Source: Bacteroidales bacterium UBA1208 (GTDB lineage Bacteria; Bacteroidota; Bacteroidia; Bacteroidales; P3). Taken from it: a stretch of DNA of 64,000 nucleotides. The notes beneath the pieces are model-generated. The model saw only the letters and a program-made list of their open reading frames with translations, did not search any database and was not told the origin of the DNA. The DNA is taken from assembly GCA_002309955.1 (NCBI GenBank), contig DBXQ01000102.1, positions 32,096 to 96,095 of the forward strand, in the 5' to 3' direction. The translations under genes and the position numbers were made by a program. Of this stretch, positions 22,923 through 53,160 are shown in pieces; positions within the stretch are counted from its first letter, which is position 1, and every line of letters starts with the position of its first letter.

Positions 22923-24203
22923 TCAACGCGAGCGTCCTATGGCAACTAAACGATCGTAGCGGTCGTTGGCACCACGGTAATAGACAAAGGCTGTGTAGCG
23001 ATTAGGGGTTTCGAAATGGTCGCCTTCCAGCACATTGGTGGCTCCCTCGGTTTCGCCTACGGGTACGAACAAAAGCTGGTAGGAATAGTATCCCTGTTTC
23101 AGGTGCAGCCGCAGGGTGTAGGCTTTCAGATCCGGACGGTATTCCATGCGAGAATGCTCATCTAAGCACCAGTTGGTGAGTTCGCCGGCCACATGCACAC
23201 TCCCGTTCATAAACGGGTAGCGCATGGGCAGTAAGAAATGGACCCACACATAGTCGGCTTCGGTCTGCTTGTTGGTGCGATCCCAAACGTTCACTTTCAT
23301 GCCTCCGCAGAGAACTTCCTCCGCTATGAAATTGGCTTTCGATCGGTCTTCGAGGGGTTTCAGCGTGGCATACCATTCGCCGCCATAGTCGGCTATCTGT
23401 GCCACATTATAGGTGGCTGTGCGAATATTGCTTATATCAAACCATCTGAAAGTGTTGCCGCAGGCAAACACATTTTCGGGTTTATGGCGGTAGCACAGCG
23501 AACTCCCTTCGAAACCGCCGAAAGGAAGCCATCGCATATTGTCTGTACGACCGTTTTGCTGCACCAATACATGGCACCACGCTGGATTAAGCGTCGGCCA
23601 CGGAACGTCGCCACGGTAATCGCGGTTCTCCGACACCGTCACATCCACTTCACGGCGCTCCCTCACGCTGCCCCCGTCGTAAGGACTCACCACCGCCACA
23701 TCGGCTTTTAGGCTACCCTCAGTCACATAAAATCTCCGGGTAAACAAAATGCGGTCAGGCTCCTCTTGGTCGAAAACAGTCACTACATAATTCCCCGACA
23801 CCAACAATTGGCTATGCTTGCCAGGGATGTATTGAAAATAATTAACATAGTCGGTCAGTGTGGTGAACGAACTGTTGTAACCTTCTATGGCTTCCTCTTC
23901 AAATCCGTTTATATATTCGTAGGGATCCAGTTCGTCGCGTTGCCAACGGCTGTCGCAATGCTCTATACGGTAACGGTAACTCCCCACCTCAGCATCCAGA
24001 ACATCGAAACGCAACAGTAGCCGGTCTTCGCTACCTAACGACAAGACAGGGGATTCTCCCTCCACACCGCCGCGGCACAACACTACCGTCTTCACCTGCG
24101 CAGACCAGATAGAGTCAGTCACTATTTGGGCATACAAACCCAATCCTTCCGACAGTGGGAGCAATACTAATAATATGAGAAACAATATAATATATTTATT
24201 CAT
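22923..24203 (-). CDS. Secreted protein, possibly DUF5103 / T9SS plug-like (low-confidence family call)
   Basis: I start it at ATG 24201-24203 (MNKYIILFLILLVLLPL...). The motif YRYRIEHCDSRWQRDEL matches my recollection of DUF5103. I could not verify this. Confidence 0.45.
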   Translation of the reverse strand: MNKYIILFLILLVLLPLSEGLGLYAQIVTDSIWSAQVKTVVLCRGGVEGESPVLSLGSEDRLLLRFDVLDAEVGSYRYRIEHCDSRWQRDELDPYEYINGFEEEAIEGYNSSFTTLTDYVNYFQYIPGKHSQLLVSGNYVVTVFDQEEPDRILFTRRFYVTEGSLKADVAVVSPYDGGSVRERREVDVTVSENRDYRGDVPWPTLNPAWCHVLVQQNGRTDNMRWLPFGGFEGSSLCYRHKPENVFACGNTFRWFDISNIRTATYNVAQIADYGGEWYATLKPLEDRSKANFIAEEVLCGGMKVNVWDRTNKQTEADYVWVHFLLPMRYPFMNGSVHVAGELTNWCLDEHSRMEYRPDLKAYTLRLHLKQGYYSYQLLFVPVGETEGATNVLEGDHFETPNRYTAFVYYRGANDRYDRLVAIGRSR

Positions 24204-24232
24204 ATAAACAAAGAAAGCACAAAATGCCTCTG

Positions 24233-24240
24233 CAAAGATA
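24233..24240 (-). promoter_or_regulatory. Bacteroidota -7 promoter box
   Basis: TATCTTTG on the minus strand, 30 nt upstream of the start at 24203. Confidence 0.45.
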
Positions 24241-24531
24241 CGAATAAAAATTAAAACCATCAAAAATAAGCACGAAAGAGCTTTTTGTAAAGGTGACGAA
24301 AGTCCCCACTGGGGGATTTCAATTGTGAAGAGGAAAAAATGAAAGCCCATCTTCAATACGCAGAATACACTCCGTCAATAGTTGTTCTATGTTGATTCAC
24401 CGTAGAACAACCGTCCCGAAAATGTCATCGGAACACAAGTGCGTTTCCTTCTGTCGTAGGTTCCTTAATGAGCGATTTGGATTTTAAGGGGAATGTTGAA
24501 CAGCTGGAGAAGTTTGTTTAATGTATCAAAT

Positions 24532-24557
24532 AAAAAAGCCTGCATTTCTGCGGGCTT
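24532..24557 (-). terminator. Likely the original tRNA-Val terminator, now displaced by the insertion
   Basis: The minus strand reads agcccgcagaaatgcaggct followed by TTTTTT. It sits immediately outside the left att repeat. Confidence 0.5.
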
Positions 24558-24806
24558 TCTATTTTGGTGGTCTGTGGCAGACCACTAAACACCGATACAA
24601 TTTATTGTGTTTCAGTGTTTGCAGCCGTTGAAAAACTTATCGAGTAACAAACGGGAAACAAAATTGTACCTTTATAGGCTTTCGGGCTGCTGTTTTTAAC
24701 TCTCAAAAACGGTGCAAAAATACAACTTTTTTCTCAATATTGCATAACTTCATCCAATATAAACAAAGAAAGCCCCGAATAGGGGCTGTTCTATGCGTGT
24801 GGGTGG

Positions 24807-25112
24807 TTATTCCTCGTCTTTGGGAATGTCCTCACCTCGTGCAAGCATTGCCAACCTCTCAACAAGCGGTCTATTCCTCGCCCTCAAATCTTGCAAATCT
24901 GCACTCACTGCCTGTTGCTTGGGGACTACATACTGCATCAGCCTTTCGAACATCTGTACTCGCTCTTTGGGTTCTAATGCTTTCAAATCTTCCTCAATCT
25001 GCTCTCGGTTGTTATCAATCAGTGCAGAAATCCATTCTCGCATGTTCTGCGTTACTTTGTTTGGTGTTCCCTTTGGTCTGCCATTGGGATTGTTGGTGTG
25101 TCCTTTTTCCAT
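24807..25112 (-). CDS. Small phage/element-associated protein (DUF5681-like, tentative)
   Basis: The N-terminus MEKGHTNNPNGRPKGTPNK is the NPNGRPKG signature I associate with DUF5681. Confidence 0.5.
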   Translation of the reverse strand: MEKGHTNNPNGRPKGTPNKVTQNMREWISALIDNNREQIEEDLKALEPKERVQMFERLMQYVVPKQQAVSADLQDLRARNRPLVERLAMLARGEDIPKDEE

Positions 25113-25134
25113 ATCTGTAAATCTTTGTTGTTTT

Positions 25135-25142
25135 CAAATATA
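25135..25142 (-). promoter_or_regulatory. Bacteroidota -7 promoter box
   Basis: TATATTTG on the minus strand, 23 nt upstream of the start at 25112. Confidence 0.4.
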
Positions 25143-25188
25143 CTTTTTTGTTCTTATCGCTCGTGCGTTTTTTTTGCCCAATTATCGA

Positions 25189-25240
25189 GCATAGTTTATA
25201 AGCATAGTTTATAAGCATTATTTATAAGCATTATTTAAGG
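25189..25240. repeat. Four tandem 13-bp repeats (iteron-like)
   Basis: gcatagtttataa | gcatagtttataa | gcattatttataa | gcattatttaagg. Confidence 0.85.
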
Positions 25241-25325
25241 TCGGGATTTTCTTGAACGTTGCTCTGTGCCTTTTTCACATTTATCCAGCACAATTATTAC
25301 GTTTACTTCGTTGCAAATAATGTAT

Positions 25326-26051
25326 TCATATTCCTAACAATGCTTTTACTCTCTTTTCGGCTGCATCAGTATTTTGTTTCAGCCTTTTCTTCTTGAATGA
25401 CGGACTTGCCCGAATTGCATACTCAATTACATTTTCCATTGATACATTAGGCTTGGTGGTGAAATAGAACCCTCTTGTGTGTTTGCTATAAATTTTCACA
25501 TTATGGAATGTCATTTGCAATTCGGCTCTCAACTTATTTGCGTAATATTCGGTAAAGTACCCTTGCAAACCACATGTCCCTATCGTTTCCGATTTCTCTA
25601 AATCTGCCCAAGAGGGATAACCGGCCATTCTCGCCCACATCAGTTTGTTGTTGGCTTTTGACACTCCATTGCTTGCACCCTCAATACTTTTCAATGCACA
25701 ATAGCCTAAAAACTTCACCTTGTCCCATTCTCTCAAATCGTCTTTACCAGCCCCAATAATCATATCCCTTTTGATTGATACACAACAATGCTTTTCTTGT
25801 ACAGGACAATTCTTATTCAGTTCTACAAGTATCTTTGCGTTTTTGGGGAAATCCCTAAAACCACAATCAAAATACATGTCGTTTTCCTCATAACTTTTAA
25901 GAACATCCTCCACATTTTTTTTGCTAATGTATGGTACAAGTCTGTTTTCGTCAATCTCTCTTACAATACACCACCTTGCCGTATTGAATAAACTGCTGGG
26001 CTTAGCCATATAGTTACGCAATAGCTCTATCGGAAATGTCAAGTAGTGCAT
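25326..26051 (-). CDS. Hypothetical protein (element cargo)
   Basis: 241-aa ORF, co-directional with its neighbours, overlapping the upstream gene by 13 nt. I recognise no motif. Confidence 0.55.
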   Translation of the reverse strand: MHYLTFPIELLRNYMAKPSSLFNTARWCIVREIDENRLVPYISKKNVEDVLKSYEENDMYFDCGFRDFPKNAKILVELNKNCPVQEKHCCVSIKRDMIIGAGKDDLREWDKVKFLGYCALKSIEGASNGVSKANNKLMWARMAGYPSWADLEKSETIGTCGLQGYFTEYYANKLRAELQMTFHNVKIYSKHTRGFYFTTKPNVSMENVIEYAIRASPSFKKKRLKQNTDAAEKRVKALLGI

Positions 26052-26512
26052 ACGAATGTTTTGTTATACCATTCAACAAAACTTTCAAAGTCCTTTGCAA
26101 TGTAGTACATACCCCCAGCACGTTCAATGTCGGCCTGGTACTTGCGTTGTGCATCGCTCTGGCGGTCGGCTCCTATCTTCACTTCAATTTTGACACTTCG
26201 CCCACAGATTGTTGCCGAAATATCTGCCGTGCCTTTCGTCATGTGCGACTTGCCAAACATATAATTGCCATTTGCCTGTTTTATCGGTCTCCCCATGATA
26301 TTGACACGTTCAGCCTGCCAACCACGCAACATGATGAAATCAATAATGCACCTCGTTAGTCCGTTGGCTGTGGTGTCGGTGTATGTGGGCTTTGGAAAGT
26401 AGGCTGCAACTCCAAACGGAGTTTGTTCTGCATGTCGTTTTAATTCGGGGTGCATTTCGATTGAGCGTTGCCACATGTCCAACTCTAATTGTTTGACTGC
26501 ATCACTCTTCAT
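26039..26512 (-). CDS. VRR-NUC / PD-(D/E)xK-like nuclease (tentative)
   Basis: I start it at ATG 26510-26512 (MKSDAV...). The motif GTADISATICGRSVKIEVKIGADRQSDAQRKYQADIERAGG fits D...E.K...Q of VRR-NUC. Confidence 0.5.
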   Translation of the reverse strand: MKSDAVKQLELDMWQRSIEMHPELKRHAEQTPFGVAAYFPKPTYTDTTANGLTRCIIDFIMLRGWQAERVNIMGRPIKQANGNYMFGKSHMTKGTADISATICGRSVKIEVKIGADRQSDAQRKYQADIERAGGMYYIAKDFESFVEWYNKTFVCTT

Positions 26513-26753
26513 AGTGTCCTCCTTTCGTTGTGAGGTGCTGGGAAATCCAATACACTTTGTAGTGTGATTTGGTCTTGGGGTTGGTACGCCAAATGTCCTG
26601 CACATCGGCTCCACCCGCAATACCGTTTTGGAAATCGGCTCTCAGTTGGCTAATAATCTTCCGTGCATCACCTGTGTTCGCCAATCGGTTCAGTTCTATA
26701 GCCGTAAACCTGCCACCCTCCAAGAGGTTTTTTATTAGAGATTGTTTTGTCAT
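26502..26753 (-). CDS. Small putative DNA-binding protein
   Basis: I start it at ATG 26751-26753, which forms an ATGA overlap with the upstream gene. The HTH-like segment is FTAIELNRLANTGDARKIISQLR. Confidence 0.45.
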   Translation of the reverse strand: MTKQSLIKNLLEGGRFTAIELNRLANTGDARKIISQLRADFQNGIAGGADVQDIWRTNPKTKSHYKVYWISQHLTTKGGHYEE

Positions 26754-27055
26754 TTCCGACCTCCTTTCCTCGGATTGTTCAACACATAGGCTGCTGCCAT
26801 TTGTTCTAACTCCTGTTGGCTGCTCACCTTGTTTTGTAGCAACCATGCGTTGATGTCCTCACGCTTGAAGAAAAGCATTTTTCCACCGCCTTTTGCAAAA
26901 GGTATTCGCCTTTCGTGTGTCAGTTTGTAGATGTAACCTTTCGACAAACCCGTGTACGCTGCCACATCGTCAATGTTGAACACGTCTTTTGCACCCATGA
27001 GGGATATTTGTTTTATCTCCTCTAACTTTGCCATGATTTCGATATTTTCGTTCAT
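26750..27055 (-). CDS. Excisionase-family helix-turn-helix protein
   Basis: I start it at ATG 27053-27055. The motif DDVAAYTGLSKGYIYKLTHERRIPFAK.GGKMLFFKREDINAWL is an HTH_17-type excisionase pattern. Confidence 0.65.
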   Translation of the reverse strand: MNENIEIMAKLEEIKQISLMGAKDVFNIDDVAAYTGLSKGYIYKLTHERRIPFAKGGGKMLFFKREDINAWLLQNKVSSQQELEQMAAAYVLNNPRKGGRK

Positions 27056-27161
27056 GTCTTTTGTTTTATTTATTATGGCAATCTCAGCATCTGCAACTAT
27101 GCGTATTGCCTTCGGATTTCTCACTTGCAGGGTTGCAGTCTCTGCCGCTTGAAATCGAGTG

Positions 27162-27169
27162 CAAAAGTA
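27162..27169 (-). promoter_or_regulatory. Bacteroidota -7 promoter box
   Basis: TACTTTTG on the minus strand, about 107 nt upstream of the start at 27055. Confidence 0.35.
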
Positions 27170-27246
27170 CAACAAAAGAAAAGAAAAACACTTGCTATAT
27201 CTCTTGATAGCAAGTGAATATTATTAATTGATTGTTAAGTATTTAT

Positions 27247-28365
27247 TTAGAATTTACTTATAGCAAACACCTTTATAATTACTCTACATTCGTTATCATC
27301 GTTATATTCTTTTGGTGGTATGGGTTTATAGGATTGCAGACGGGTTTCGTTAAATAAATCCTCAAACAATCCCCATGTTTTGAGAGGAAACCCCATTCTA
27401 TTTTTTCTTAAGTCTAATACTTCAATTGCATGGTCGGCAAAACATTTCAAACTATATTTATTTTTCCTCCACTTCCAATGTTTTCCCTCGCTCATCTCGA
27501 TATACCCCAATTCGGCAAACTTGGCAAACATCGCCTTTGCTTTTGGCGTTGTCAGTCGTGGGTCTATTGTGAACGGCTCGTTCTCTTCACTTTGATATAG
27601 GCTCAAATAGTCCTCCAACTCGGCTTTCTCTGTGCGTAATGCCCACCACAAGTAAACTGCATGAATTGCCGTGTTCAGTTTCTCGGTCGCTGCATTAATA
27701 CTCTGCTCAGCCTGCACTCGCTCACCTCTTCTTTCCTCAAACTCTTCGGGCAGTCCGATACTTTCCCACTCTATGGGATATAACCGCAACACATCTCTTT
27801 CTTGCTGGGTGATATTGCTATAACTTGCATCTATCAATCCCATACATAACCTATAAAGGAAACTATCCCTATACTCGTACCATACAGAATAATACCCTCC
27901 CAACTTATACTCCCCATTACAATACCCATTCCCCATATACACCCATTTTTCCTCAAATGTCACCCTGTTTCCCCGATTGTATCCGCCCACCATCCATGTG
28001 TTTACACCGTTTTCATCTGTTTGTTTCCACTTGCTACTATAATATTCGCCTCGCACCTCTTTACACTTCTCTTCTCTCTCTTCTGCTTGCTCGGGAGTTT
28101 CTTTATCGTATGTGTCAAAATAGTCTTTTGCCTCTATAAAATAGCTTATCTCGTCCTTGTGGTCGGATAGCTTTGTAAAATCCTCATAACTAAATCGCTT
28201 TTGCCCCACCCCACACTTTTCGGCAATGTCAAACAATGTTGGCTCGCTGCTCTGCATCTGTCGGCATAGGTTTTTCAGCCCATTTAGTCGTTGCTGCTCG
28301 TCCGTTTGGTTCAACACGTTCATTGCCAATCTCTCAAATCTGCTTAATGTTTCTGCATTCATCAT
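27247..28365 (-). CDS. Hypothetical protein (element cargo, 372 aa)
   Basis: A long ORF directly downstream of the integrase. It is acidic and Trp/Tyr-rich, and I recognise no motif. Confidence 0.55.
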   Translation of the reverse strand: MMNAETLSRFERLAMNVLNQTDEQQRLNGLKNLCRQMQSSEPTLFDIAEKCGVGQKRFSYEDFTKLSDHKDEISYFIEAKDYFDTYDKETPEQAEEREEKCKEVRGEYYSSKWKQTDENGVNTWMVGGYNRGNRVTFEEKWVYMGNGYCNGEYKLGGYYSVWYEYRDSFLYRLCMGLIDASYSNITQQERDVLRLYPIEWESIGLPEEFEERRGERVQAEQSINAATEKLNTAIHAVYLWWALRTEKAELEDYLSLYQSEENEPFTIDPRLTTPKAKAMFAKFAELGYIEMSEGKHWKWRKNKYSLKCFADHAIEVLDLRKNRMGFPLKTWGLFEDLFNETRLQSYKPIPPKEYNDDNECRVIIKVFAISKF

Positions 28366-28378
28366 TTACCCCTCCATA

Positions 28379-29551
28379 TTAAAGCTCGTTCAACAGGTTC
28401 ACCGCATCCACTTTCTTTTTATCCACTATCTTTGCATATATCTGAGTTGTCGCAACCTCGGAATGTCCCAACAGCTTGCTGACGGTGTAGAGGTCTGCCC
28501 CCTTAGTCAATAGGGTTGTGGCGTATGTGTGGCGTGCTGTGTGTAATGTCAGGTTCTTGTTTATCCCTGCCCGTTCTGCCCATGCTTTCAATGTGCGGTT
28601 CATGGCTGGCTCTGTCGGTATGTCGGCAAATACAAGCCCGCTGACGGGCTTTTCTCCCTGTTGCGGTAGAAACTCCCGTGCCTTGCTTGATAGGGGCAAA
28701 TAGAGGGGTGTTTGCGTTTTCTGCTGGCGTATGGTGATAGTCCATTGTTCGCCCTGCTGGTTTATGTCAGCCCACCGCAACGCCTTAACGTCCGATATAC
28801 GCAAACCGCAATAACACATAAAGAGGTACGCCCGTCTTGTTTCCTCGCTGGCTGTCGGGGTGTTCTCTAACAACTTCAACTCATCAATAGTAAGATACGC
28901 CCGTGTGCTTTCGGGTACTTTGATTTTGTCCGCATCTGCCAACATATCACACGGGTTTTTGTTTATTACGCCCTCCCTCACTGCCTCGGACAATGCAAAC
29001 CTCAAACATTGGTAACGCTTTTGTGCTGTGCTGGCTGCTAAATGCTGCCCCGTGTTCTGCACATTACGCCCGATAACGTAACCCGTACGCAAATACTCTA
29101 TAAAGCCCTTGCAAAATTCGGTGTCCACGTCCGACACTCTCACACGTTCACCAGCGTATTGTCTCAACAGGTCTGCGGTGTTCTCTATCGTACGCCCCCA
29201 CGTGTGGCGGTTGGCTGCTGTGCTGGCTCTCTGCTCTGCCTGTTCGGCACAATGCATCATCCAATCCGACAACAGAATTTTCGACTGCCAAACACGCTTT
29301 AATCCCGCCTCTTCGGCTATGATTACCCGTGTACGCTCTGCTTTGATAGCGTTTGCAGCGTTCAGCACCTCCAAGTTATGCAGCTTGTCAAAGGGTGTTT
29401 TTTCGGGTATTAGATAGAGTTTCAAAAATTCATATTCCCTTTGCCCGTCTTTGTAATAGTCCAAATACAGCGACACATTCCCGTTTGACAGTCTTTTTTC
29501 TCTCAAACGTACCGTTTCTTTCGCCTTGCTGGCAACTTTTTTTCTCGGCAT
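28379..29551 (-). CDS. Tyrosine site-specific integrase (phage integrase family with N-terminal arm-binding domain)
   Basis: N-terminus RLREKRLSNGNVSLYLDYY.DG.REYEFL. The catalytic region is HTARHTYATTLL...LLGHSEVATTQIYAKIV. Confidence 0.9.
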   Translation of the reverse strand: MPRKKVASKAKETVRLREKRLSNGNVSLYLDYYKDGQREYEFLKLYLIPEKTPFDKLHNLEVLNAANAIKAERTRVIIAEEAGLKRVWQSKILLSDWMMHCAEQAEQRASTAANRHTWGRTIENTADLLRQYAGERVRVSDVDTEFCKGFIEYLRTGYVIGRNVQNTGQHLAASTAQKRYQCLRFALSEAVREGVINKNPCDMLADADKIKVPESTRAYLTIDELKLLENTPTASEETRRAYLFMCYCGLRISDVKALRWADINQQGEQWTITIRQQKTQTPLYLPLSSKAREFLPQQGEKPVSGLVFADIPTEPAMNRTLKAWAERAGINKNLTLHTARHTYATTLLTKGADLYTVSKLLGHSEVATTQIYAKIVDKKKVDAVNLLNEL

Positions 29552-29582
29552 ACTCGATAAGATTTAATTTTGTTTCCGATTG

Positions 29583-29590
29583 CAAAGATA
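29583..29590 (-). promoter_or_regulatory. Bacteroidota -7 promoter box for the integrase
   Basis: TATCTTTG on the minus strand, 32 nt upstream of the start at 29551. Confidence 0.45.
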
Positions 29591-29727
29591 CAAACTTTTT
29601 TTCATTCGAGTAACAAACGAGTAACAAAAATGTACCTTATAACATCAAAACAAGGTAAAATAACACCCAAAACTGCAACGGCTGTAATTCAGTATATTAA
29701 CTATGAAAATCAATACTTTATGGCATT

Positions 29728-29750
29728 AAAAAAGCCCCTTAATTGGGGCT
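29728..29750 (-). terminator. Element-borne terminator just downstream of the reconstituted tRNA-Val
   Basis: The minus strand reads agccccaattaaggggct followed by TTTTT. Confidence 0.55.
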
Positions 29751-29756
29751 TCTGTG

Positions 29757-29831
29757 TGGTCTGTGGCAGATTCGAACTGTCGACCTCTTCCGTGTGAAGG
29801 AAGCGCTCTGAACCAACTGAGCTAACAGACC
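29757..29831 (-). tRNA. tRNA-Val (anticodon CAC)
   Basis: Hand-folded cloverleaf: acceptor ggtctgt/acagacc, D-arm agctcagttggttcagagc, anticodon stem cttcc/ggaag with loop TTCACAC, T-arm gacag-ttcgaat-ctgcc. Confidence 0.9.
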
Positions 29832-29877
29832 TTTTACAAAACAAGCGGAGGCCTTTGACCTCCGTGTTGCTCTTGTG

Positions 29878-29952
29878 TGATCTGTACAAGATTTGAACTT
29901 GTGACCTCTTGCCTGTCAAGCAAGCGCTCTAAACCAACTGAGCTAACAGATC
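29878..29952 (-). tRNA. tRNA-Val (anticodon GAC)
   Basis: Acceptor gatctgt/acagatc, anticodon stem cttgc/gcaag with loop TTGACAG, T-arm acaag-ttcaaat-cttgt. Confidence 0.9.
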
Positions 29953-29987
29953 ATTTTTTTGGCACTTTTCTCTCTCGAAAAGCGGTT

Positions 29988-29995
29988 GCAAAAGT
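29988..29995 (-). promoter_or_regulatory. Bacteroidota -7 promoter box for the tRNA-Val pair
   Basis: TACTTTTG on the minus strand, 36 nt upstream of the tRNA 5' end at 29952. Confidence 0.45.
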
Positions 29996-30224
29996 ACGAA
30001 CATTTTTTTGATTGACAAAATTTTTTTTCTCAAAAAGATACAACATGCTGATTATAAATGCTACTTTTTTGCTCGGCTTCTCTTGTAAGACTCTGTAAAA
30101 AGCCTCTTGAGCCCCTTGTTTTATGCTTTTTTCGCCTTTGTTGTTCTCATTTTTTCTACAAGTGAACGTTATGCTTTGGATTTCACTGCATATCGCTCAA
30201 TAGGGAGCGGTTGCCGCAGTGTTT

Positions 30225-50174: not shown

Positions 50175-50355
50175 GCCCTTCCCTCGTTCGTTATTCCTCA
50201 GTTCTCCCATCGTTCTCCCATCGTTCTTCCTCCACAGAAGGAGAACTGAGGTAGAACTGTGGCCATAGCAAAGCCGAACGAGCGACCCAAATGCGTCAAT
50301 ACATGACGGCCTCTTTTGTGATAAAAGGACTTCTATAAATTGCCTTGTAGAGGCA
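50175..50355 (+). repeat. Dispersed repeat copy C (internally deleted)
   Basis: It contains the identical hairpin core (50196-50251) and the distal aggacttctataaattgccttg segment, but lacks the G-rich middle part. Confidence 0.5.
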
Positions 50356-50829
50356 AACTCTCAATAACCCCGCACTGCGAGTGTGGGGATTATCATGCAA
50401 GTATAACTCAGCGTGTCGGTGACATGCGCTCTCAAAATTGAATTAATACAACTTCTAATTATTCAAATAAATCATTGCAAAGCAATAAAGCAATGTTGAT
50501 TCACAGGATTTTTCTTTTTAAACACGAATTTTCATCAATATGTCATTAATTTAATGGTTATTACATGATGATTCAAGTCAACCTCATAACAATGTGGTTG
50601 GCATGTTTAGAAATCCCTTCAATAGAACCCATCATAATATTAACCATTTGCAAGTGATAGAAACAATCCCGACCTCTCCGCATCCCACGTCTCATTCCCC
50701 TCACTATAACCTCTATTTTGATAGTGTTTGTGTGAAAAAGATATATTCTAATTAGATGGTGTTCATTATATTTGTATAAAGAATCTTATCACAATTATTA
50801 AAAAAGGTGTCCGTATTGAAAAAAAAGCG

Positions 50830-50837
50830 TATATTTG
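50830..50837 (+). promoter_or_regulatory. Bacteroidota -7 promoter box upstream of the AT-rich two-gene cassette
   Basis: TATATTTG, about 205 nt upstream of the ATG at 51043. Confidence 0.4.
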
Positions 50838-50864
50838 CACCTTGTAAATGATGTAAGTATCAAT

Positions 50865-50900
50865 TTTTATAGATAGGTACAATTTTATAGATAGGTACAA
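50865..50900. repeat. Perfect 18-bp tandem duplication
   Basis: ttttatagataggtacaa occurs twice back to back (50865-50882 and 50883-50900). Confidence 0.85.
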
Positions 50901-51042
50901 GAGGAAGATATATATTTTTAACATGAATGGCGAAAAATAGGAGTACATAATTTCGCATGTAAGTAATAATTTGACATTAATAGAATGATGATACATTTGG
51001 ATATATATTATAAATCAAATAACCCACTAAAGAAGGTATAAA

Positions 51043-51525
51043 ATGTGTACAGATAATTCGCAAAAAGAAATTAATATTGCAAAAATGAGCGATGAAAAGA
51101 TTAAACATCTTGAATTTATCCAAGATGTAATCACACGTATGGCGCACAATTCTTTTATGATTAAGAACTGGTGCATAACAGTTACAGTTGCTTTGCTGGC
51201 AATTGCATCGAAGATAGACAATGTGGTTTTTGTAATAGTTTCCATATTTACAACTATTATGTTTTGGATATTAGATAGTTATTATATTCAGCAAGAGCGT
51301 AAATTTAGAGTTCTATATGATGATGCTATTGCACCAGACTTCCCTGTGTTCAAAATGAGTCCATCAAAAGAATTGTTGTCTTTGCCAAAGAACAAAAAGA
51401 ATCTTAATTTCTGGCGAGTATTCTTTTCAAAAACAATAGTGATGCTATATCCGACACTAATTGTAATGGTTCTTTTTGTTTCGAGTTTAACTAAATTTGG
51501 TATTATTCATACTGCTATTGACTAA
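51043..51525 (+). CDS. Small membrane protein, three predicted TM helices (candidate effector)
   Basis: 160 aa. An amphipathic N-terminus KIKHLEFIQDVITRMAHNSFMIKNW is followed by hydrophobic spans CITVTVALLAIASKI, VVFVIVSIFTTIMFWIL and IVMLYPTLIVMVLFVSSL. An alternative start is ATG 51085. Confidence 0.6.
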   Translation: MCTDNSQKEINIAKMSDEKIKHLEFIQDVITRMAHNSFMIKNWCITVTVALLAIASKIDNVVFVIVSIFTTIMFWILDSYYIQQERKFRVLYDDAIAPDFPVFKMSPSKELLSLPKNKKNLNFWRVFFSKTIVMLYPTLIVMVLFVSSLTKFGIIHTAID

Positions 51526-51559
51526 TAGTAATGATTCCTGTTTCAATTCTAACTAAAAA

Positions 51560-52492
51560 ATGAAATGTAATATGGAAAAAGTTTTTATTAGTTATCGTTC
51601 TACTAACGCAGAGCAACTCTTTAGAAATGGATGTCCAGTATTGCGCCAAGGTTCAACCTGTGATTGTTTAAAAGCCGAACATTGTTCAGTAGGAGATTGT
51701 GAATTTAAGAGGGTTGCTATTTTTGCTAATCGACAAAAATATGATTGTAAGGTAGTGCCACCGATGTTTATGCTTCCTCCACATACAATACTAAGTCCCA
51801 TGGGTTTCTACAAAAATTTGAGGGAGTTAAAACGACTCATTTCTGTCAGCGATATTTTTGTTAGATTTGAGATACAGGAAGATAGTTATTGGACTACCAT
51901 GGAACTGGAAATATGGAAGGTCTATTCTCATCATAATAGATTTTTCAATGTGTGGTTAGATCAAACTGGGGCTACTTCATATAATGAACAATTATTTAAA
52001 GAAATCAGTAAAGATGAAAAAAGATATTATCAGCGATTATTATTTTATACAGATGTGGATAACTGGCACACCCATGCATGGGGACGATTCTCCGATTGTT
52101 TTATAAACGTATGTCCAAATTGTGGAAAGTTGACCTTGTTTAGTGATAAGGCATTAGAGCACTTAATCTGTATTCAGGGTAAAATACATTGTACTCATTG
52201 CAATAATGCACAGTTTGAATTTACACATGTGAAAGGAGCTGGCGGTCTCGTACGATATAAATATTCGGGAGACTATCATTTTTCGAACATACTTTTTCCT
52301 GAAATTGTTAATACTATATTATTAAATTCAAAATTCGATGAGTTAAAAGACATGCACTTAATATGTATGTCTTATGAATCTTTCCCAGATAAAATCGCAA
52401 TGATTAAGGCCGGAAGTATTTTGATTGATGAGGTAAAAAAGGTATTAACTAATGGTGGTACGTTGGAATTACGAACATTTCAGGATAAATAA
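51560..52492 (+). CDS. TIR-like domain protein with Cys-rich insert and C-terminal zinc ribbon
   Basis: KVFISYRS (TIR beta-A strand) at aa 7-14. ISVSDIFV...DSYWTTMEL (S.W...EL, Glu115) lies at aa 94-116. The Cys cluster is C25/C34/C36/C42/C47. CPNC...CTHC lies at aa 186-215. The gene starts 34 nt after the TM gene. Confidence 0.6.
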   Translation: MKCNMEKVFISYRSTNAEQLFRNGCPVLRQGSTCDCLKAEHCSVGDCEFKRVAIFANRQKYDCKVVPPMFMLPPHTILSPMGFYKNLRELKRLISVSDIFVRFEIQEDSYWTTMELEIWKVYSHHNRFFNVWLDQTGATSYNEQLFKEISKDEKRYYQRLLFYTDVDNWHTHAWGRFSDCFINVCPNCGKLTLFSDKALEHLICIQGKIHCTHCNNAQFEFTHVKGAGGLVRYKYSGDYHFSNILFPEIVNTILLNSKFDELKDMHLICMSYESFPDKIAMIKAGSILIDEVKKVLTNGGTLELRTFQDK

Positions 52493-52616
52493 AGGAAGAT
52501 TCATATTTTTGTTTATTTACAATCTTATCCTAAGATTATGGAATAATGCATAACCACTTTATCAATTAAAGGAGGTGACATTATATTGTTGGATTTTTGA
52601 TACTTATTTTTTTAAG

Positions 52617-52736
52617 GTTACCTATAATATTAGAAACTTGAAAAAACAGGGTGTCTTCCGCCGTATCGAACCTAACAAAGGGGGACACTGGGAAGTGGTA
52701 ACACCCGAAACGAAAGACTATGCACTTAACAAATAA
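52617..52736 (+). pseudogene. Remnant of the C-terminus of an AlbA_2/RecG-like ATP-dependent regulator (tentative)
   Basis: An in-frame peptide ..TYNIRNLKKQGVFRRIEPNKGGHWEVVTPETKDYALNK* has no usable upstream gene body (stop at 52551-52553) and is followed by a terminator. Confidence 0.35.
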
Positions 52737-52740
52737 GTTT

Positions 52741-52779
52741 AAGCCACGGCAAGACCTTGCGTTTGTTGTGGCTTTTTTA
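52741..52779 (+). terminator. Terminator-like hairpin
   Basis: aagccac ... gtggctt stem followed by a T6 run. Confidence 0.5.
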
Positions 52780-52990
52780 TTTTTAAATGCTACCCAATTT
52801 CCTTAAAACTCATCCTCCATTCGGATATTGGCGCCATTTCTCCCTCTTCAAATTTCCTTTTGTATTTTCCTCTATCTTGACTTAGTGGGGTATCTTGGTG
52901 TTGTTAGGTCTTGTTGAGGGTGAGATTTTTAAAAAGATGTAGTTGTTTGGTTTTTGTGTATAATTAATTATTTATCAGTATTTTAAATGC

Positions 52991-53160
52991 ATTAGTGGTT
53001 GTATGAAGGGTGGGATGGGGGTAAAAAAGGCTGTGGTGGGGTTGTGTGTGGGGTGTTTTGTGTGGAGAGGGGAGTGGGTTTGGCGGATGGTTGATGTTTT
53101 GTTGCGACGATGAAGGACGGGATAGGAAGGTATAGGAGGGTTGCGGATAGATGTGGAATT
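52991..53160 (+). repeat. Extreme G+T-rich, C-depleted tract related to the G-rich part of the dispersed repeat
   Basis: I count only six C in 170 nt. It has many G3-5 runs (gggtgggatggggg, ggtggggttgtgtgtgggg, gaggggagtggg) and shares gaagggtggg / ggtggggtt with copies A and B. Confidence 0.5.

What the first reader, a model, noticed from the sequence alone, without database searches (positions are those of the whole stretch)
51560..52492. Unusual TIR-like architecture: Cys5 insert inside the TIR core plus a CxxC...CxxC zinc ribbon and an unassigned C-terminal domain
A roughly 30-aa Cys-rich stretch lies between the beta-A strand (aa 7-14) and the S.W...EL catalytic-type motif (aa 109-116): C25PVLRQGSTC34DC36LKAEHC42SVGDC47. 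Canonical TIR domains have no such stretch.

Downstream, C186PNC189 ... C212THC215 forms a classic zinc-ribbon spacing. About 95 further residues have no motif I recognise.

A metal- or redox-gated TIR, or one that senses nucleic acid through the ribbon, would be new.
Basis: seen in the sequence. Interest (0 to 1): 0.7.

Follow-up and report, generated by a model that had tools for sequence, protein, structure and literature searches.

The report
Divergent zinc-finger TIR in Thoeris-like operon
The gene encodes a very divergent, cysteine-rich relative of the TIR "sensor" proteins of Thoeris anti-phage systems, paired with a small membrane protein that normally partners such TIRs. It is therefore an unusual variant of a known kind of bacterial immune system, not a new kind.

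Summary
The ORF (51560-52492, +, 310 aa; likely start M5 at 51572) and its cysteines are real. Four of the five insert cysteines (C25, C34, C42, C47) are kept in 21/21 insert-bearing homologues. The ribbon cysteines are kept in 60-61 of 61 homologues and Glu115 in 61/61.

No curated TIR model reaches its cut-off, and the fold search shows only a generic flavodoxin-like fold. TIR homology rests on profile-profile alignment to bona fide ThsB TIRs (88% probability, P=3e-6) and on gene context.

The upstream gene (51043-51525) is a 3-TM protein of the PADLOC candidate family PDC-M50A. In 80 other genomes this family is usually flanked by ThsB/TIR genes. It corresponds, by inference, to the type V Thoeris effector ThsF.

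Relatives of the 310-aa protein sit next to three other Thoeris effector types:
- SIR2-SLOG
- Macro
- SLATT

Relatives next to Macro effectors lack the Cys insert and carry a C-terminal TM helix.

Best reading: a two-gene, type V-like Thoeris system. Its ThsB-type TIR has gained a probable Cys4 zinc knuckle in the βA-αA loop, in a family that also has a zinc ribbon and a C-terminal domain. Metal or redox gating is untested. This is a new variant of a known kind, of moderate interest.

The parts
51043..51525 (+). Operon partner: a small membrane protein with three hydrophobic segments. It is 160 aa as called, and probably starts at M15 (51085), giving 146 aa. It belongs to PADLOC family PDC-M50A and is the predicted ThsF-like effector.
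   Evidence: PADLOC PDC-M50A, E=2.2e-39. Hydrophobic segments lie at aa 23-68 and 112-145, counted from M15. A homologous gene sits directly upstream of the TIR-like gene in loci L002, L014 and L016 at 45-73% identity. In 80 other genomes the adjacent gene is ThsB_TIR or TIR_2.
51265..51309 (+). Conserved cytosolic motif FWxLDxYYxxQERKFR, just after the second TM segment of the partner protein. It is a candidate ligand or signal-binding site (inferred).
   Evidence: W61, D64, Y67, E71, R72 and R75 are invariant in 33 family members, as are H8, E10, Q13, R18 and K27 of the N-terminal helix.
51560..52492 (+). The gene in the finding: a 310-aa, soluble, Cys-rich TIR-like protein (likely start 51572, 306 aa). 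It is the predicted ThsB-type sensor and signal synthase.
   Evidence: ORF confirmed. No TM segment. The family is rare: 9 close and about 50-60 distant relatives among billions of proteins.
51572..52093 (+). N-terminal flavodoxin-like, TIR-like domain (aa 5-178).
   Evidence: AF2 model of the domain has pLDDT 84 with β-α-β-α-β-α-β topology. hhalign to ThsB TIRs gives 88% probability, P=2.9e-6. Foldseek is weak and generic: Csa3, MilB/BcmB, RPPT-TIR, ThsB.
51578..51595 (+). βA strand, VFISYR.
   Evidence: F9, S11 and R13 are invariant in 41 sequences. The strand aligns to βA 'iFiSh' of ThsB TIRs.
51611..51709 (+). Insertion of about 33 residues (aa 18-50) in the βA-αA loop, carrying C25, C34, C42 and C47. 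It is a probable Cys4 metal (zinc) knuckle.
   Evidence: Present in 21 relatives and a clean gap in about 40. The four Cys are kept in 21/21 and C36 in only 7. It is modelled as three short helices at pLDDT 82-88. Metal binding is inferred, not shown.
51884..51916 (+). Catalytic-type TIR motif S109-Y-W-T-T-M-E115-L-E-I-W119 at the start of αC.
   Evidence: T112 and E115 are kept in 61/61 and W119 in 60/61. E115 aligns with the conserved Glu of 'W..wEI' in ThsB TIRs.
52097..52270 (+). Zinc-ribbon module (aa 180-237). The knuckles are CPNC (52112-52123) and CTHC (52190-52201). Each lies between two predicted β-strands, and a helix separates the two hairpins.
   Evidence: C185 and C211 are kept in 61/61, C188 and C214 in 60/61. 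Secondary structure comes from the AF2 model. Members give many sub-threshold zinc-ribbon Pfam hits.
52292..52489 (+). C-terminal α/β region (aa 245-310) with the conserved HLICMSxExF motif. Function unknown. In the insert-less clade the end of this region is replaced by a TM helix.
   Evidence: H266, L267, I268, C269, S271, E273 and F275 are invariant in the close family. E273 is E or D in 57/61. C-terminal TM helices occur in clade 2. No structural match was found.
50300..53000 (.). Low-GC islet of about 31-41% GC in a roughly 54% GC neighbourhood. It holds only this two-gene unit.
   Evidence: Composition profile and per-segment GC. No tRNA gene or flanking long repeat was found.

Best explanation
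The two co-oriented genes 51043-51525 and 51560-52492 form a Thoeris-like anti-phage signalling system of the 'TIR plus small membrane effector' kind. PADLOC lists this kind as candidate PDC-M50, and it is closest to type V Thoeris (ThsB + ThsF).

**Proposed mechanism.**
1. The 310-aa protein is the ThsB-type component. Its N-terminal TIR-like domain, with E115 as catalytic Glu, would convert NAD+ into an ADP-ribose-derived signal when the protein detects phage infection.
2. The zinc ribbon, the C-terminal domain and the lineage-specific Cys4 knuckle next to the active-site loop are the non-catalytic parts that would sense or regulate.
3. The signal would bind the conserved charged cytosolic face of the oligomeric 3-TM partner. 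The partner then damages the membrane and aborts infection.
4. The predicted signal is 3'cADPR, because the closest contexts are ThsF-like and SIR2-SLOG effectors.

**Shown here.**
- The ORFs exist.
- The Cys and Glu residues are conserved.
- The insertion is clade-specific.
- The family's N-domain profile aligns to ThsB TIRs.
- The operon partner is conserved.
- The partner family is associated with TIR genes.
- The TIR-like family is associated with four Thoeris effector types.

**Inferred, not shown.**
- Enzymatic activity
- Identity of the signal
- Zinc binding
- Effector mechanism
- Defence phenotype
For: **1. Partner identity.**
- The upstream gene is PADLOC PDC-M50A, E=2.2e-39.
- At least 447 genomic loci encode this family.
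- In the best 80 loci, 48/66 downstream neighbours hit Pfam ThsB_TIR and 28/66 hit TIR_2. 41/66 hit PADLOC PDC-M50B and 42/66 a ThsB model.
- Of the upstream neighbours, 21/52 hit TIR_2 and 13/52 hit ThsB_TIR.
- The window gene occupies exactly the downstream TIR slot.

**2. Conserved pairing.** The same TM-then-TIR-like pair occurs with P0007, P0009 and P0003, which are 42-60% identical to the window protein.

**3. Effector swapping within the TIR-like family.**
- P0059 follows a SIR2+STALD ThsA and a ThsB_TIR.
- P0017 follows a SLATT gene and a ThsB_TIR.
- The insert-less P0063 and P0043 are each followed by a ThsA_Macro gene: overlapping or abutting in L017 and L018, about 70 bp downstream in L019 and L020.

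**4. TIR homology.**
- hhalign gives 88% probability, P=2.9e-6, over 91 columns, with motif-on-motif alignment. Controls gave P=0.15-0.99.
- TIR_2 is the Pfam family hit by most members, 11/41.
- L6, L7 and Cat1 TIRs are the only hits that are neither zinc fingers nor zinc-binding proteins up to E=1 when the family profile is searched against PDB sequences.
- E115 and T112 are kept in 61/61.

**5. Link to type V Thoeris.**
- The TIR next to the TM gene in L057 is 87% identical to IMG gene 2523920137, which Table S1 of Yirmiya et al. lists as 'DUF2270 - Type V' (bioRxiv 10.64898/2025.12.03.692087).
- Homologues of the validated B. thuringiensis type V TIR are followed by TM-family genes on C. 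botulinum and Klebsiella plasmids.
- That paper reports three TM helices in ThsF, 3'cADPR signalling and enrichment in Bacteroidota.

**6. Defence-island signs.** The pair sits in a low-GC islet. In L001 and L002 it lies next to SIR2-TIR and nSTAND1 genes.
Against: - No curated TIR, ThsB or PDC-M50B model reaches significance on the window protein or on 10 relatives.
- The insert-bearing clade alone aligns to TIRs only weakly: P=0.037, or 0.045 with the insert deleted. Its TIR assignment is therefore transitive, through the insert-less clade.
- Foldseek's best matches are the Csa3 CARF domain and Atg7 (E of about 4e-3 to 1e-2, TM-score about 0.3). TIR and ThsB appear only at E of 0.26-0.37.
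- The partner does not pass Pfam DUF2270. Only 5/33 and 2/10 members hit it, all sub-threshold, with a best E of 0.003.
- Yirmiya et al. warn that in unverified configurations the TIR may be an NAD-depleting effector rather than a signal producer.
- There are no experimental data of any kind for this family.
Confidence: 0.62

Rival explanations
1. The TIR-like protein is itself the toxic effector, an NADase that depletes NAD+. The 3-TM protein is then a membrane anchor, sensor or regulator, not a signal-activated effector. No diffusible signal is involved.
For: The catalytic-type Glu is invariant. The partner has no recognised ligand-binding domain. Insert-less relatives carry their own C-terminal TM helix, which suggests that membrane localisation of the TIR matters in itself. 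Yirmiya et al. state this caveat explicitly for unverified configurations.
Against: The partner family is overwhelmingly paired with ThsB-type TIRs. It maps, by inference, onto ThsF, for which 3'cADPR-triggered toxicity was reported. Relatives of the TIR-like protein sit beside signal-receiving effectors with SLOG, Macro and SLATT domains.
Confidence: 0.15
2. The N-domain is not an enzyme. It is a Rossmann-like ligand-sensor domain of the CARF or SLOG type that receives a nucleotide signal, and the protein is a receptor or adaptor.
For: The top Foldseek hits are CARF proteins. Csa3 scores E=4e-3 with probability 0.87, and Cad1-CARF, Csm6 and a ring nuclease appear lower down. In the type I-like and type VII-like loci a canonical ThsB is also present, so a second role is conceivable.
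Against: TM-scores are low, about 0.3, with rmsd of about 12 Å for the Csa3 hits. Sequence profiles point to TIR, not CARF. The FISYR and SxWTxxE motifs with an invariant Glu are TIR hallmarks. In the window locus no other signal producer is encoded.
Confidence: 0.07
3. One reading: the Cys4 insert is a metal- or redox-sensitive switch that gates TIR activity, or the zinc ribbon binds phage nucleic acid as the trigger. This is compatible with the best explanation as a refinement of its sensing step.
For: The insert lies in the βA-αA loop, beside the region that forms the TIR active-site pocket (the pocket location is general TIR knowledge). The four Cys are strictly conserved. Their spacing, C-x7-9-C-x7-10-C-x4-C, is not a classical CxxC knuckle.
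Against: No evidence distinguishes a regulatory site from a purely structural zinc site. The insert-less clade evidently works without it. The ribbon has no detectable similarity to a nucleic-acid-binding family above noise.
Confidence: 0.1
4. The pair is not an immune system. It is a housekeeping or accessory membrane-associated protein pair of Bacteroidota with no role against phages.
For: No phenotype is known. In the window the neighbours are ordinary outer-membrane and T9SS cargo genes.
Against: The pair sits in a low-GC islet and its distribution is patchy across phyla. It occurs on plasmids and in prophage-like regions. It is consistently adjacent to TIR, SIR2, STAND and Thoeris genes.
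Confidence: 0.05

Closest known systems
Type V Thoeris (ThsB TIR + ThsF/DUF2270 three-TM effector; Yirmiya et al. 2025, bioRxiv 10.64898/2025.12.03.692087)
   Same: It is a two-gene unit made of a TIR-type protein and a small protein with three TM segments, about 140 aa here. The type is enriched in Bacteroidota. A TIR 87% identical to one listed as 'DUF2270 - Type V' lies next to a member of the window's TM family. Homologues of the validated B. thuringiensis type V TIR are followed by TM-family genes.
   Different: The window's TM protein does not reach the Pfam DUF2270 cut-off. The TIR is not any of the TIR clusters seen in the stored part of the paper's Table S1. It carries a Cys4 insert, a zinc ribbon and an extra C-terminal domain.
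PADLOC candidate system PDC-M50 (A = small membrane protein, B = ThsB-like TIR)
   Same: The A component matches strongly, E=2.2e-39. The gene order, A then a TIR-type gene, is the same as in most of the 80 loci examined.
   Different: The B model does not hit the window protein or its relatives. Canonical B proteins are about 146-235 aa, average about 1.3% Cys and have no double CxxC.
ThsB proteins of type I, II and VII Thoeris
   Same: Relatives of the window protein occupy ThsB positions next to three effector types: SIR2-SLOG ThsA, Macro-domain (ThsA_Macro), and SLATT. They share the βA motif and the W-x3-E catalytic-type motif.
   Different: Pfam ThsB_TIR and TIR_2 and the PADLOC ThsB models are not met. 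Sequence identity to canonical ThsBs is about 13% over the aligned core. The zinc ribbon is absent from the canonical ThsBs examined.
TIR / nucleoside 2-deoxyribosyltransferase-like N-glycosidase folds (MilB, BcmB, DNPH1)
   Same: The predicted N-domain matches these flavodoxin-like N-glycosidases with Foldseek probability 0.85-0.91. They are the enzymes whose structural similarity to TIR was used to identify the TIR catalytic Glu (Essuman et al. 2017, recalled from my own knowledge, not checked here).
   Different: E-values are only 0.08-0.3 and TM-scores about 0.35. There is no sequence-level relationship.

Membership tests
TIR domain superfamily | Passes a curated TIR profile (Pfam TIR, TIR_2, ThsB_TIR, TIR-like) at the gathering score. 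| tested here: not met
   The window protein has no TIR hit even at E of 1 or less. 11/41 relatives hit TIR_2, all below the 28-bit cut-off, with a best E of 2.2e-4.
TIR domain superfamily | Profile-profile homology to bona fide TIR domains across βA to αC. | tested here: met
   hhalign of the family N-domain against 78 ThsB/TIR proteins gives 88% probability, P=2.9e-6, over 91 columns. The insert-less clade alone gives 92%, P=6.5e-7. Controls gave P of 0.15 or more. The window's own clade alone gives only P=0.04, so its membership is transitive.
TIR domain superfamily | Hydrophobic βA motif (F/Y-I/L-S-Y/H) and a conserved Glu four residues after Trp/Phe at the start of αC. | tested here: met
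   VFISYR is at aa 8-13 and W111-x3-E115 follows. E115 is kept in 61/61. The motifs align on the TIR motifs.
TIR domain superfamily | Flavodoxin-like α/β fold that specifically resembles solved TIR structures. | tested here: inconclusive
   The AF2 N-domain model has pLDDT 84 and alternating β/α elements. In Foldseek against the PDB, Csa3, Atg7 and MilB/BcmB rank above RPPT-TIR (E=0.26) and ThsB 9b7d (E=0.37). All TM-scores are 0.4 or lower.
TIR domain superfamily | NAD+ glycohydrolase or cyclase activity dependent on the Glu. | not testable with these tools
   This needs biochemistry.
Thoeris (ThsB + signal-activated effector) | A TIR gene in an operon with a known Thoeris effector family. 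| tested here: met
   For relatives, the neighbours are SIR2+STALD, ThsA_Macro and SLATT. For the window, the neighbour is a PDC-M50A/ThsF-like 3-TM gene.
Thoeris (ThsB + signal-activated effector) | Infection-triggered synthesis of an ADPR-derived signal that activates the effector, and phage defence. | not testable with these tools
   This needs phage assays and LC-MS.
Type V Thoeris effector ThsF (Pfam DUF2270) | The partner passes PF10028 at the gathering score. | tested here: not met
   The window partner has no DUF2270 hit at E of 1 or less. 5/33 and 2/10 family members hit it, all sub-threshold, with a best E of 0.003 against a 25-bit cut-off.
Type V Thoeris effector ThsF (Pfam DUF2270) | A small protein with three TM helices encoded next to TIRs of the clusters used by validated type V systems. 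| tested here: met
   Three hydrophobic segments. Neighbouring TIRs include close homologues of the type V TIRs: 87% identity to a Table S1 'DUF2270 - Type V' entry, and 39-45% to the validated B. thuringiensis TIR.
PADLOC PDC-M50 | Both the A and the B component models are matched. | tested here: not met
   A is met at E=2.2e-39. B has no hit for the window protein or for 10 relatives.
Zinc ribbon | Two CxxC knuckles, each at the turn of a β-hairpin, with conserved Cys residues. | tested here: met
   CPNC 185-188 lies between strands 181-184 and 191-194. CTHC 211-214 lies between strands 208-210 and 217-223. The Cys residues are kept in 60-61/61. No curated ribbon model passes its cut-off. 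Zinc binding itself is not testable here.
CARF domain (considered as rival) | Sequence or profile similarity to CARF families, with CARF ligand-binding motifs. | tested here: not met
   No CARF family appears in Pfam or in PDB sequence searches. There is only a weak structural match, with TM-score about 0.3 and rmsd about 12 Å.

The most novel reading that the evidence does not exclude
The strictly conserved Cys4 module, inserted in the βA-αA loop beside the TIR active-site pocket, is a regulatory element and not just a structural zinc site. It could be a metal- or redox-sensitive switch, or the phage-sensing surface itself. In that case it would gate signal synthesis by a ThsB-type TIR, a mode of TIR control not described so far. 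The family's ability to pair with four different Thoeris effector types would then make it a natural system for studying how sensing and product specificity evolve.
Probability: 0.12. Interest if true: 0.7.

Novelty: new variant of a known kind. Interest (0 to 1): 0.42.

Why it matters
Thoeris-type TIR signalling systems are being catalogued quickly, but the catalogues start from Pfam- or HHsearch-recognisable TIRs. This family is invisible to the Pfam, NCBIfam and PADLOC models. It is rare (dozens of sequences among billions) and comes almost only from metagenomes. Yet it sits in ThsB positions next to four effector types. This shows that the TIR sensor repertoire extends beyond what current models detect.

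The family also provides a clean natural comparison: the same TIR scaffold with and without a Cys4 insertion next to the active-site loop, and with a fused TM helix or a separate membrane partner. If the insert or the ribbon proves to be the trigger-sensing or gating element, it would bear on an open question in Thoeris biology, namely how ThsB proteins recognise infection.

If it is only a structural zinc site, the finding is a useful but ordinary extension of a known system family.

Tried and rejected
**Direct annotation found nothing.**
- Pfam, NCBIfam and PADLOC gave nothing for the 310-aa protein.
- phmmer against PDB sequences gave only noise.
- A profile of the N-domain alignment that was weighted to one subclade found nothing in the PDB.

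**Fold searches were not decisive.**
- The full-length model (pLDDT 76) and the N-domain model (pLDDT 84) gave only weak, generic Rossmann/flavodoxin matches in the PDB. They gave nothing useful in the viral library.
- I therefore do not claim a TIR fold from structure.

**Partner classification.**
- SLATT and 8xMP were considered for the partner. There is no SLATT hit, and the 8xMP and DUF3278 hits are weak only.
- A literature search for '8xMP' returned unrelated papers.

**Literature.**
- 'PDC-M50' is not mentioned in the held literature.
- No paper on a ThsB with a zinc ribbon was found.

**Table S1 of Yirmiya et al.**
- Motif strings of the family were absent from the stored part of the table.
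- The stored file is cut off, so absence from the full table is not shown.

**Mobile-element boundaries.** There is no tRNA gene and there are no convincing flanking repeats. The sigma-70 promoter scan was at chance level and does not apply to Bacteroidota.

**Uninformative context.** The contig carrying P0010 was too short to be informative.
Full report
**1. Observation**

The ORF 51560-52492 (+) is present and encodes 310 aa. Gene callers and every homologue begin at M5 (MEKVFISY, nt 51572). That 306-aa protein is identical on 13 public contigs, including one NCBI metagenome-assembled genome.

Cysteines lie at positions 3, 25, 34, 36, 42, 47, 63, 180, 185, 188, 204, 211, 214 and 269. The motifs KVFISYRS (7-14) and S109-Y-W-T-T-M-E115-L are correct. 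Cys content is 4.5%, against a mean of 1.3% in 78 canonical TIR proteins that partner the same membrane-protein family.

**2. The family**

The protein has only 9 relatives in a 5.8-billion-protein collection. A profile search of 1.84 billion cluster representatives found 49, and a second profile search found 31, none with a name or a Pfam domain. In an alignment of 61 members, two architectures appear.

- **Clade 1** includes the window protein and has 21 sequences, down to about 22% identity. It has an insertion of about 33 residues between βA and αA.
  - C25, C34, C42 and C47 are present in 21/21.
  - C36 is present in only 7, so the conserved unit is Cys4.
  - The spacing is C-x7-9-C-x7-10-C-x4-C.
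  - Clade 1 has no TM segment.
- **Clade 2** has about 40 sequences of about 290-300 aa. It has a clean gap at the insert position, with an ordinary 'FISHRSxDYxKA' βA-αA junction. Most members examined carry a C-terminal TM helix.

Both clades share the following:

- the FISxR strand
- T112 and E115 (61/61) and W119 (60/61)
- the ribbon cysteines (C185 and C211 in 61/61; C188 and C214 in 60/61)
- a C-terminal strand-plus-Glu motif (E273 or D in 57/61)

The ribbon and the C-terminal region are therefore ancestral to the family. The Cys4 module is a later, lineage-specific insertion.

**3. Is it a TIR?**

Direct evidence is thin and should be stated as such.

- No Pfam, NCBIfam or PADLOC model hits the window protein or 10 relatives in PADLOC.
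- The AF2 models are reasonably confident: full length pLDDT 76 and pTM 0.71, and N-domain pLDDT 84. They show an alternating β/α domain, with the insert modelled as three short helices at pLDDT 82-88.
- Foldseek finds nothing better than E of about 4e-3 with TM-scores of about 0.3. The best hits are the Csa3 CARF domain and Atg7.
- These are followed by the N-glycosidases MilB and BcmB (probability 0.85-0.91), flavodoxin-like proteins, a plant TIR (7xoz, E=0.26) and ThsB (9b7d, E=0.37). The viral library adds only nucleoside 2-deoxyribosyltransferases and one TIR/WD40 protein at E above 0.1.

The fold is therefore flavodoxin/Rossmann-like, but structure does not single out TIR.

Sequence profiles do point to TIR.

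- TIR_2 is the Pfam family hit by the most members (11/41, best E=2.2e-4, all below the cut-off).
- The family profile searched against PDB sequences finds L6 TIR (E=0.025), L7 TIR (0.075) and the CRISPR-associated TIR Cat1 (0.15). Up to E=1 these are its only hits that are neither zinc fingers nor zinc-binding proteins.
- hhalign of the family's N-domain against an alignment of 78 ThsB/TIR proteins, collected independently from the neighbourhoods of the partner gene, gives 88% probability and P=2.9e-6 over 91 columns. FISYR aligns on the TIR βA, and DSyWT..E on the TIR 's.Wi.wEI' motif, so E115 falls on the catalytic Glu.
- Controls all gave weak scores:
  - Reversed template: P=0.18
  - Unrelated TM-family alignment: P=0.16
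  - Twenty column-shuffled templates: P=0.15-0.99
- Clade 2 alone gives 92% probability, P=6.5e-7. Clade 1 alone gives only a local match around the Glu motif (P=0.037, or 0.045 with the insert deleted).

The window protein's TIR assignment is thus transitive. It is homologous to clade 2 by HMMER (E down to 1e-16, from a profile built from the window protein's nine closest relatives), and clade 2 is homologous to ThsB TIRs.

**4. Context, the decisive evidence**

**Upstream partner.**
- The gene 34 bp upstream (51043-51525; homologues start at M15, nt 51085) encodes a small protein with three hydrophobic segments. It matches PADLOC PDC-M50A at E=2.2e-39.
- The same pair, membrane gene then TIR-like gene, occurs with P0007, P0009 (a 4-bp overlap) and P0003.
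- The partner proteins are 45-73% identical to the window's.

**The membrane-protein family.**
- This family is far commoner than the TIR-like family: 285 clusters in the protein collection and at least 447 genomic loci across many phyla.
- In the best 80 loci, the gene immediately downstream hits Pfam ThsB_TIR in 48/66 cases and TIR_2 in 28/66.
- It hits PADLOC PDC-M50B in 41/66 and a ThsB model in 42/66.
- The gene immediately upstream hits TIR_2 in 21/52 cases and ThsB_TIR in 13/52.

So PDC-M50 is a 'small membrane protein + ThsB-like TIR' system, and the window gene sits in the TIR slot.

**The TIR-like family next to other Thoeris effectors.**
- P0059 (38% identical, with the Cys4 insert) follows a SIR2+STALD ThsA and a canonical ThsB.
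- P0017 (with the insert) follows a SLATT gene and a ThsB_TIR.
- Clade 2 members P0063 and P0043 are each followed by a ThsA_Macro gene: overlapping or abutting in L017 and L018, about 70 bp downstream in L019 and L020.
- In L001 and L002 the pair lies beside SIR2-TIR and nSTAND1 genes.

This effector swapping is the same signature that Yirmiya et al. (bioRxiv 10.64898/2025.12.03.692087) used to define new Thoeris types.

**5. Which known system?**

Yirmiya et al. describe type V Thoeris as follows:

- a ThsB TIR plus ThsF (Pfam DUF2270)
- ThsF is an effector with three membrane-spanning helices
- ThsF is modelled as a ring with positively charged inter-protomer pockets
- ThsF is triggered by 3'cADPR
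- the type is enriched in Bacteroidota

The window's partner does not reach the DUF2270 cut-off. Only 5/33 and 2/10 family members hit it, sub-threshold, with a best E of 0.003. Two indirect links tie the family to type V.

- The TIR next to the family member in Flavobacterium sp. SUN052 (L057) is 87% identical to IMG gene 2523920137, which Table S1 lists as 'DUF2270 - Type V'.
- On C. botulinum and Klebsiella plasmids, homologues (45% and 39.5% identical) of the experimentally validated B. thuringiensis type V TIR are directly followed by members of the family.

I therefore regard the partner as ThsF-like, with formal membership unproven.

The partner's invariant residues cluster in the N-terminal helix (H8, E10, Q13, R18, K27) and just after the second TM segment (W61, D64, Y67, E71, R72, R75). 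This would fit a cytosolic ligand site, but that is inference.

**6. Mechanism proposed**

On infection, the 310-aa protein's non-catalytic modules detect a phage cue. These are the ribbon, the C-terminal domain and perhaps the Cys4 knuckle. Its TIR domain then converts NAD+ to an ADPR-derived signal, and the signal activates the oligomeric 3-TM partner to breach the membrane.

The closest contexts of the window's clade are ThsF-like and SIR2-SLOG effectors, both reported to respond to 3'cADPR. 3'cADPR is therefore the best guess for the signal, held with low confidence.

The Cys4 module most likely binds zinc structurally. Its position in the βA-αA loop, next to the region that forms the TIR pocket, leaves a regulatory role open.

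None of the following is shown here: activity, signal identity, zinc binding, effector mechanism or defence.

**7. Rivals**

- **The TIR as an NAD-depleting effector, with the membrane protein as anchor or sensor.**
  - For: this is the caveat the paper itself raises.
  - For: it is supported by the fused TM helix of clade 2.
  - Against: the signal-receiving effectors found next to relatives.
- **A CARF-like receptor.**
  - For: it is suggested only by weak structural hits.
  - Against: the sequence profiles contradict it.
  - Against: no other signal producer is encoded in the window locus.
- **A non-immune role.** This is unlikely given the low-GC islet (31-41% GC against about 54%), the patchy distribution, carriage on plasmids and prophages, and the neighbours.

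**8. Novelty and verdict**

The system type is known: PADLOC candidate PDC-M50, and type V-like Thoeris. What is new is the TIR subfamily:

- it is undetected by current curated models
- it was not found in the stored part of the paper's TIR table, which is cut off when stored
- it is not described in the held literature
- it has a conserved zinc ribbon and C-terminal domain
- the window's clade has a Cys4 insertion in the TIR core loop

None of the 78 canonical TIR partners of the same membrane family has a double CxxC.

This is a new variant of a known kind, of moderate interest. The TIR call is supported indirectly. The 'gated TIR' idea remains untested.

Noticed in passing
window 50865-50900: A perfect 18-nt tandem direct repeat (TTTTATAGATAGGTACAA, two copies) lies about 145-180 bp upstream of the membrane-protein gene, in the AT-rich leader. 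It may be an operator or regulatory site for the operon.
   Followed up: no
window 51043-51084 and 51560-51571: Both genes probably start later than the longest ORF. Most homologues of the membrane protein begin at the equivalent of M15 (51085), although the two closest ones, like the called 160-aa gene, carry an N-terminal extension. All homologues of the TIR-like protein begin at the equivalent of M5 (51572).
   Followed up: partly
window 52575-52774: A 53-aa ORF (52575-52736) is followed by a strong terminator-like hairpin (52741-52774). It sits between the TIR-like gene and the next real gene and looks like a gene remnant inside the islet. It has only a weak Pfam hit (DUF1965, E=0.008).
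   Followed up: no
L018 5607-5975, L019 1993-2361, L020 1148-1516; and the contig carrying P0016 (no DNA held): A small DUF1232 (PF06803) gene sits directly next to members of the TIR-like family in two unrelated contexts. It is upstream of P0043, which also has ThsA_Macro downstream. It is 10 bp downstream of P0016. It may be a further associated membrane component or effector.
   Followed up: no
L017 1-12885: The clade 2 TIR-like gene and its ThsA_Macro partner (type II Thoeris-like) lie among phage genes: tail tape measure, Dam, an S24 repressor-type peptidase, UmuC-like IMS, DUF2586 and ClpP-type protease. The pair is therefore probably carried by a prophage.
   Followed up: no
L001/L002 1757-5245: Immediately upstream of the P0007 pair are a 461-aa SIR2_2+TIR_2 fusion protein and a 694-aa nSTAND1 NTPase. 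This is a defence-island neighbourhood.
   Followed up: no
L014 339-2631: Upstream of the P0009 pair are three co-oriented genes (259, 203 and 273 aa). Their N-termini look like signal peptides or lipoprotein signals, judged by eye, and they have no Pfam hit. It is unknown whether they belong to the system.
   Followed up: no
L102 2501-3745 (C. botulinum plasmid p6CSt) and L103 2501-3680 (Klebsiella plasmid): TIR plus PDC-M50A-family pairs are carried on plasmids, flanked by recombinase genes in L102. tblastn found the membrane-protein family on 140 plasmid records, many of them conjugative Klebsiella and Escherichia plasmids.
   Followed up: partly
window 24000-30000: A second stretch of lower GC (37-47%) with reversed GC skew holds several minus-strand ORFs of 140-390 aa. 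It was not examined.
   Followed up: no
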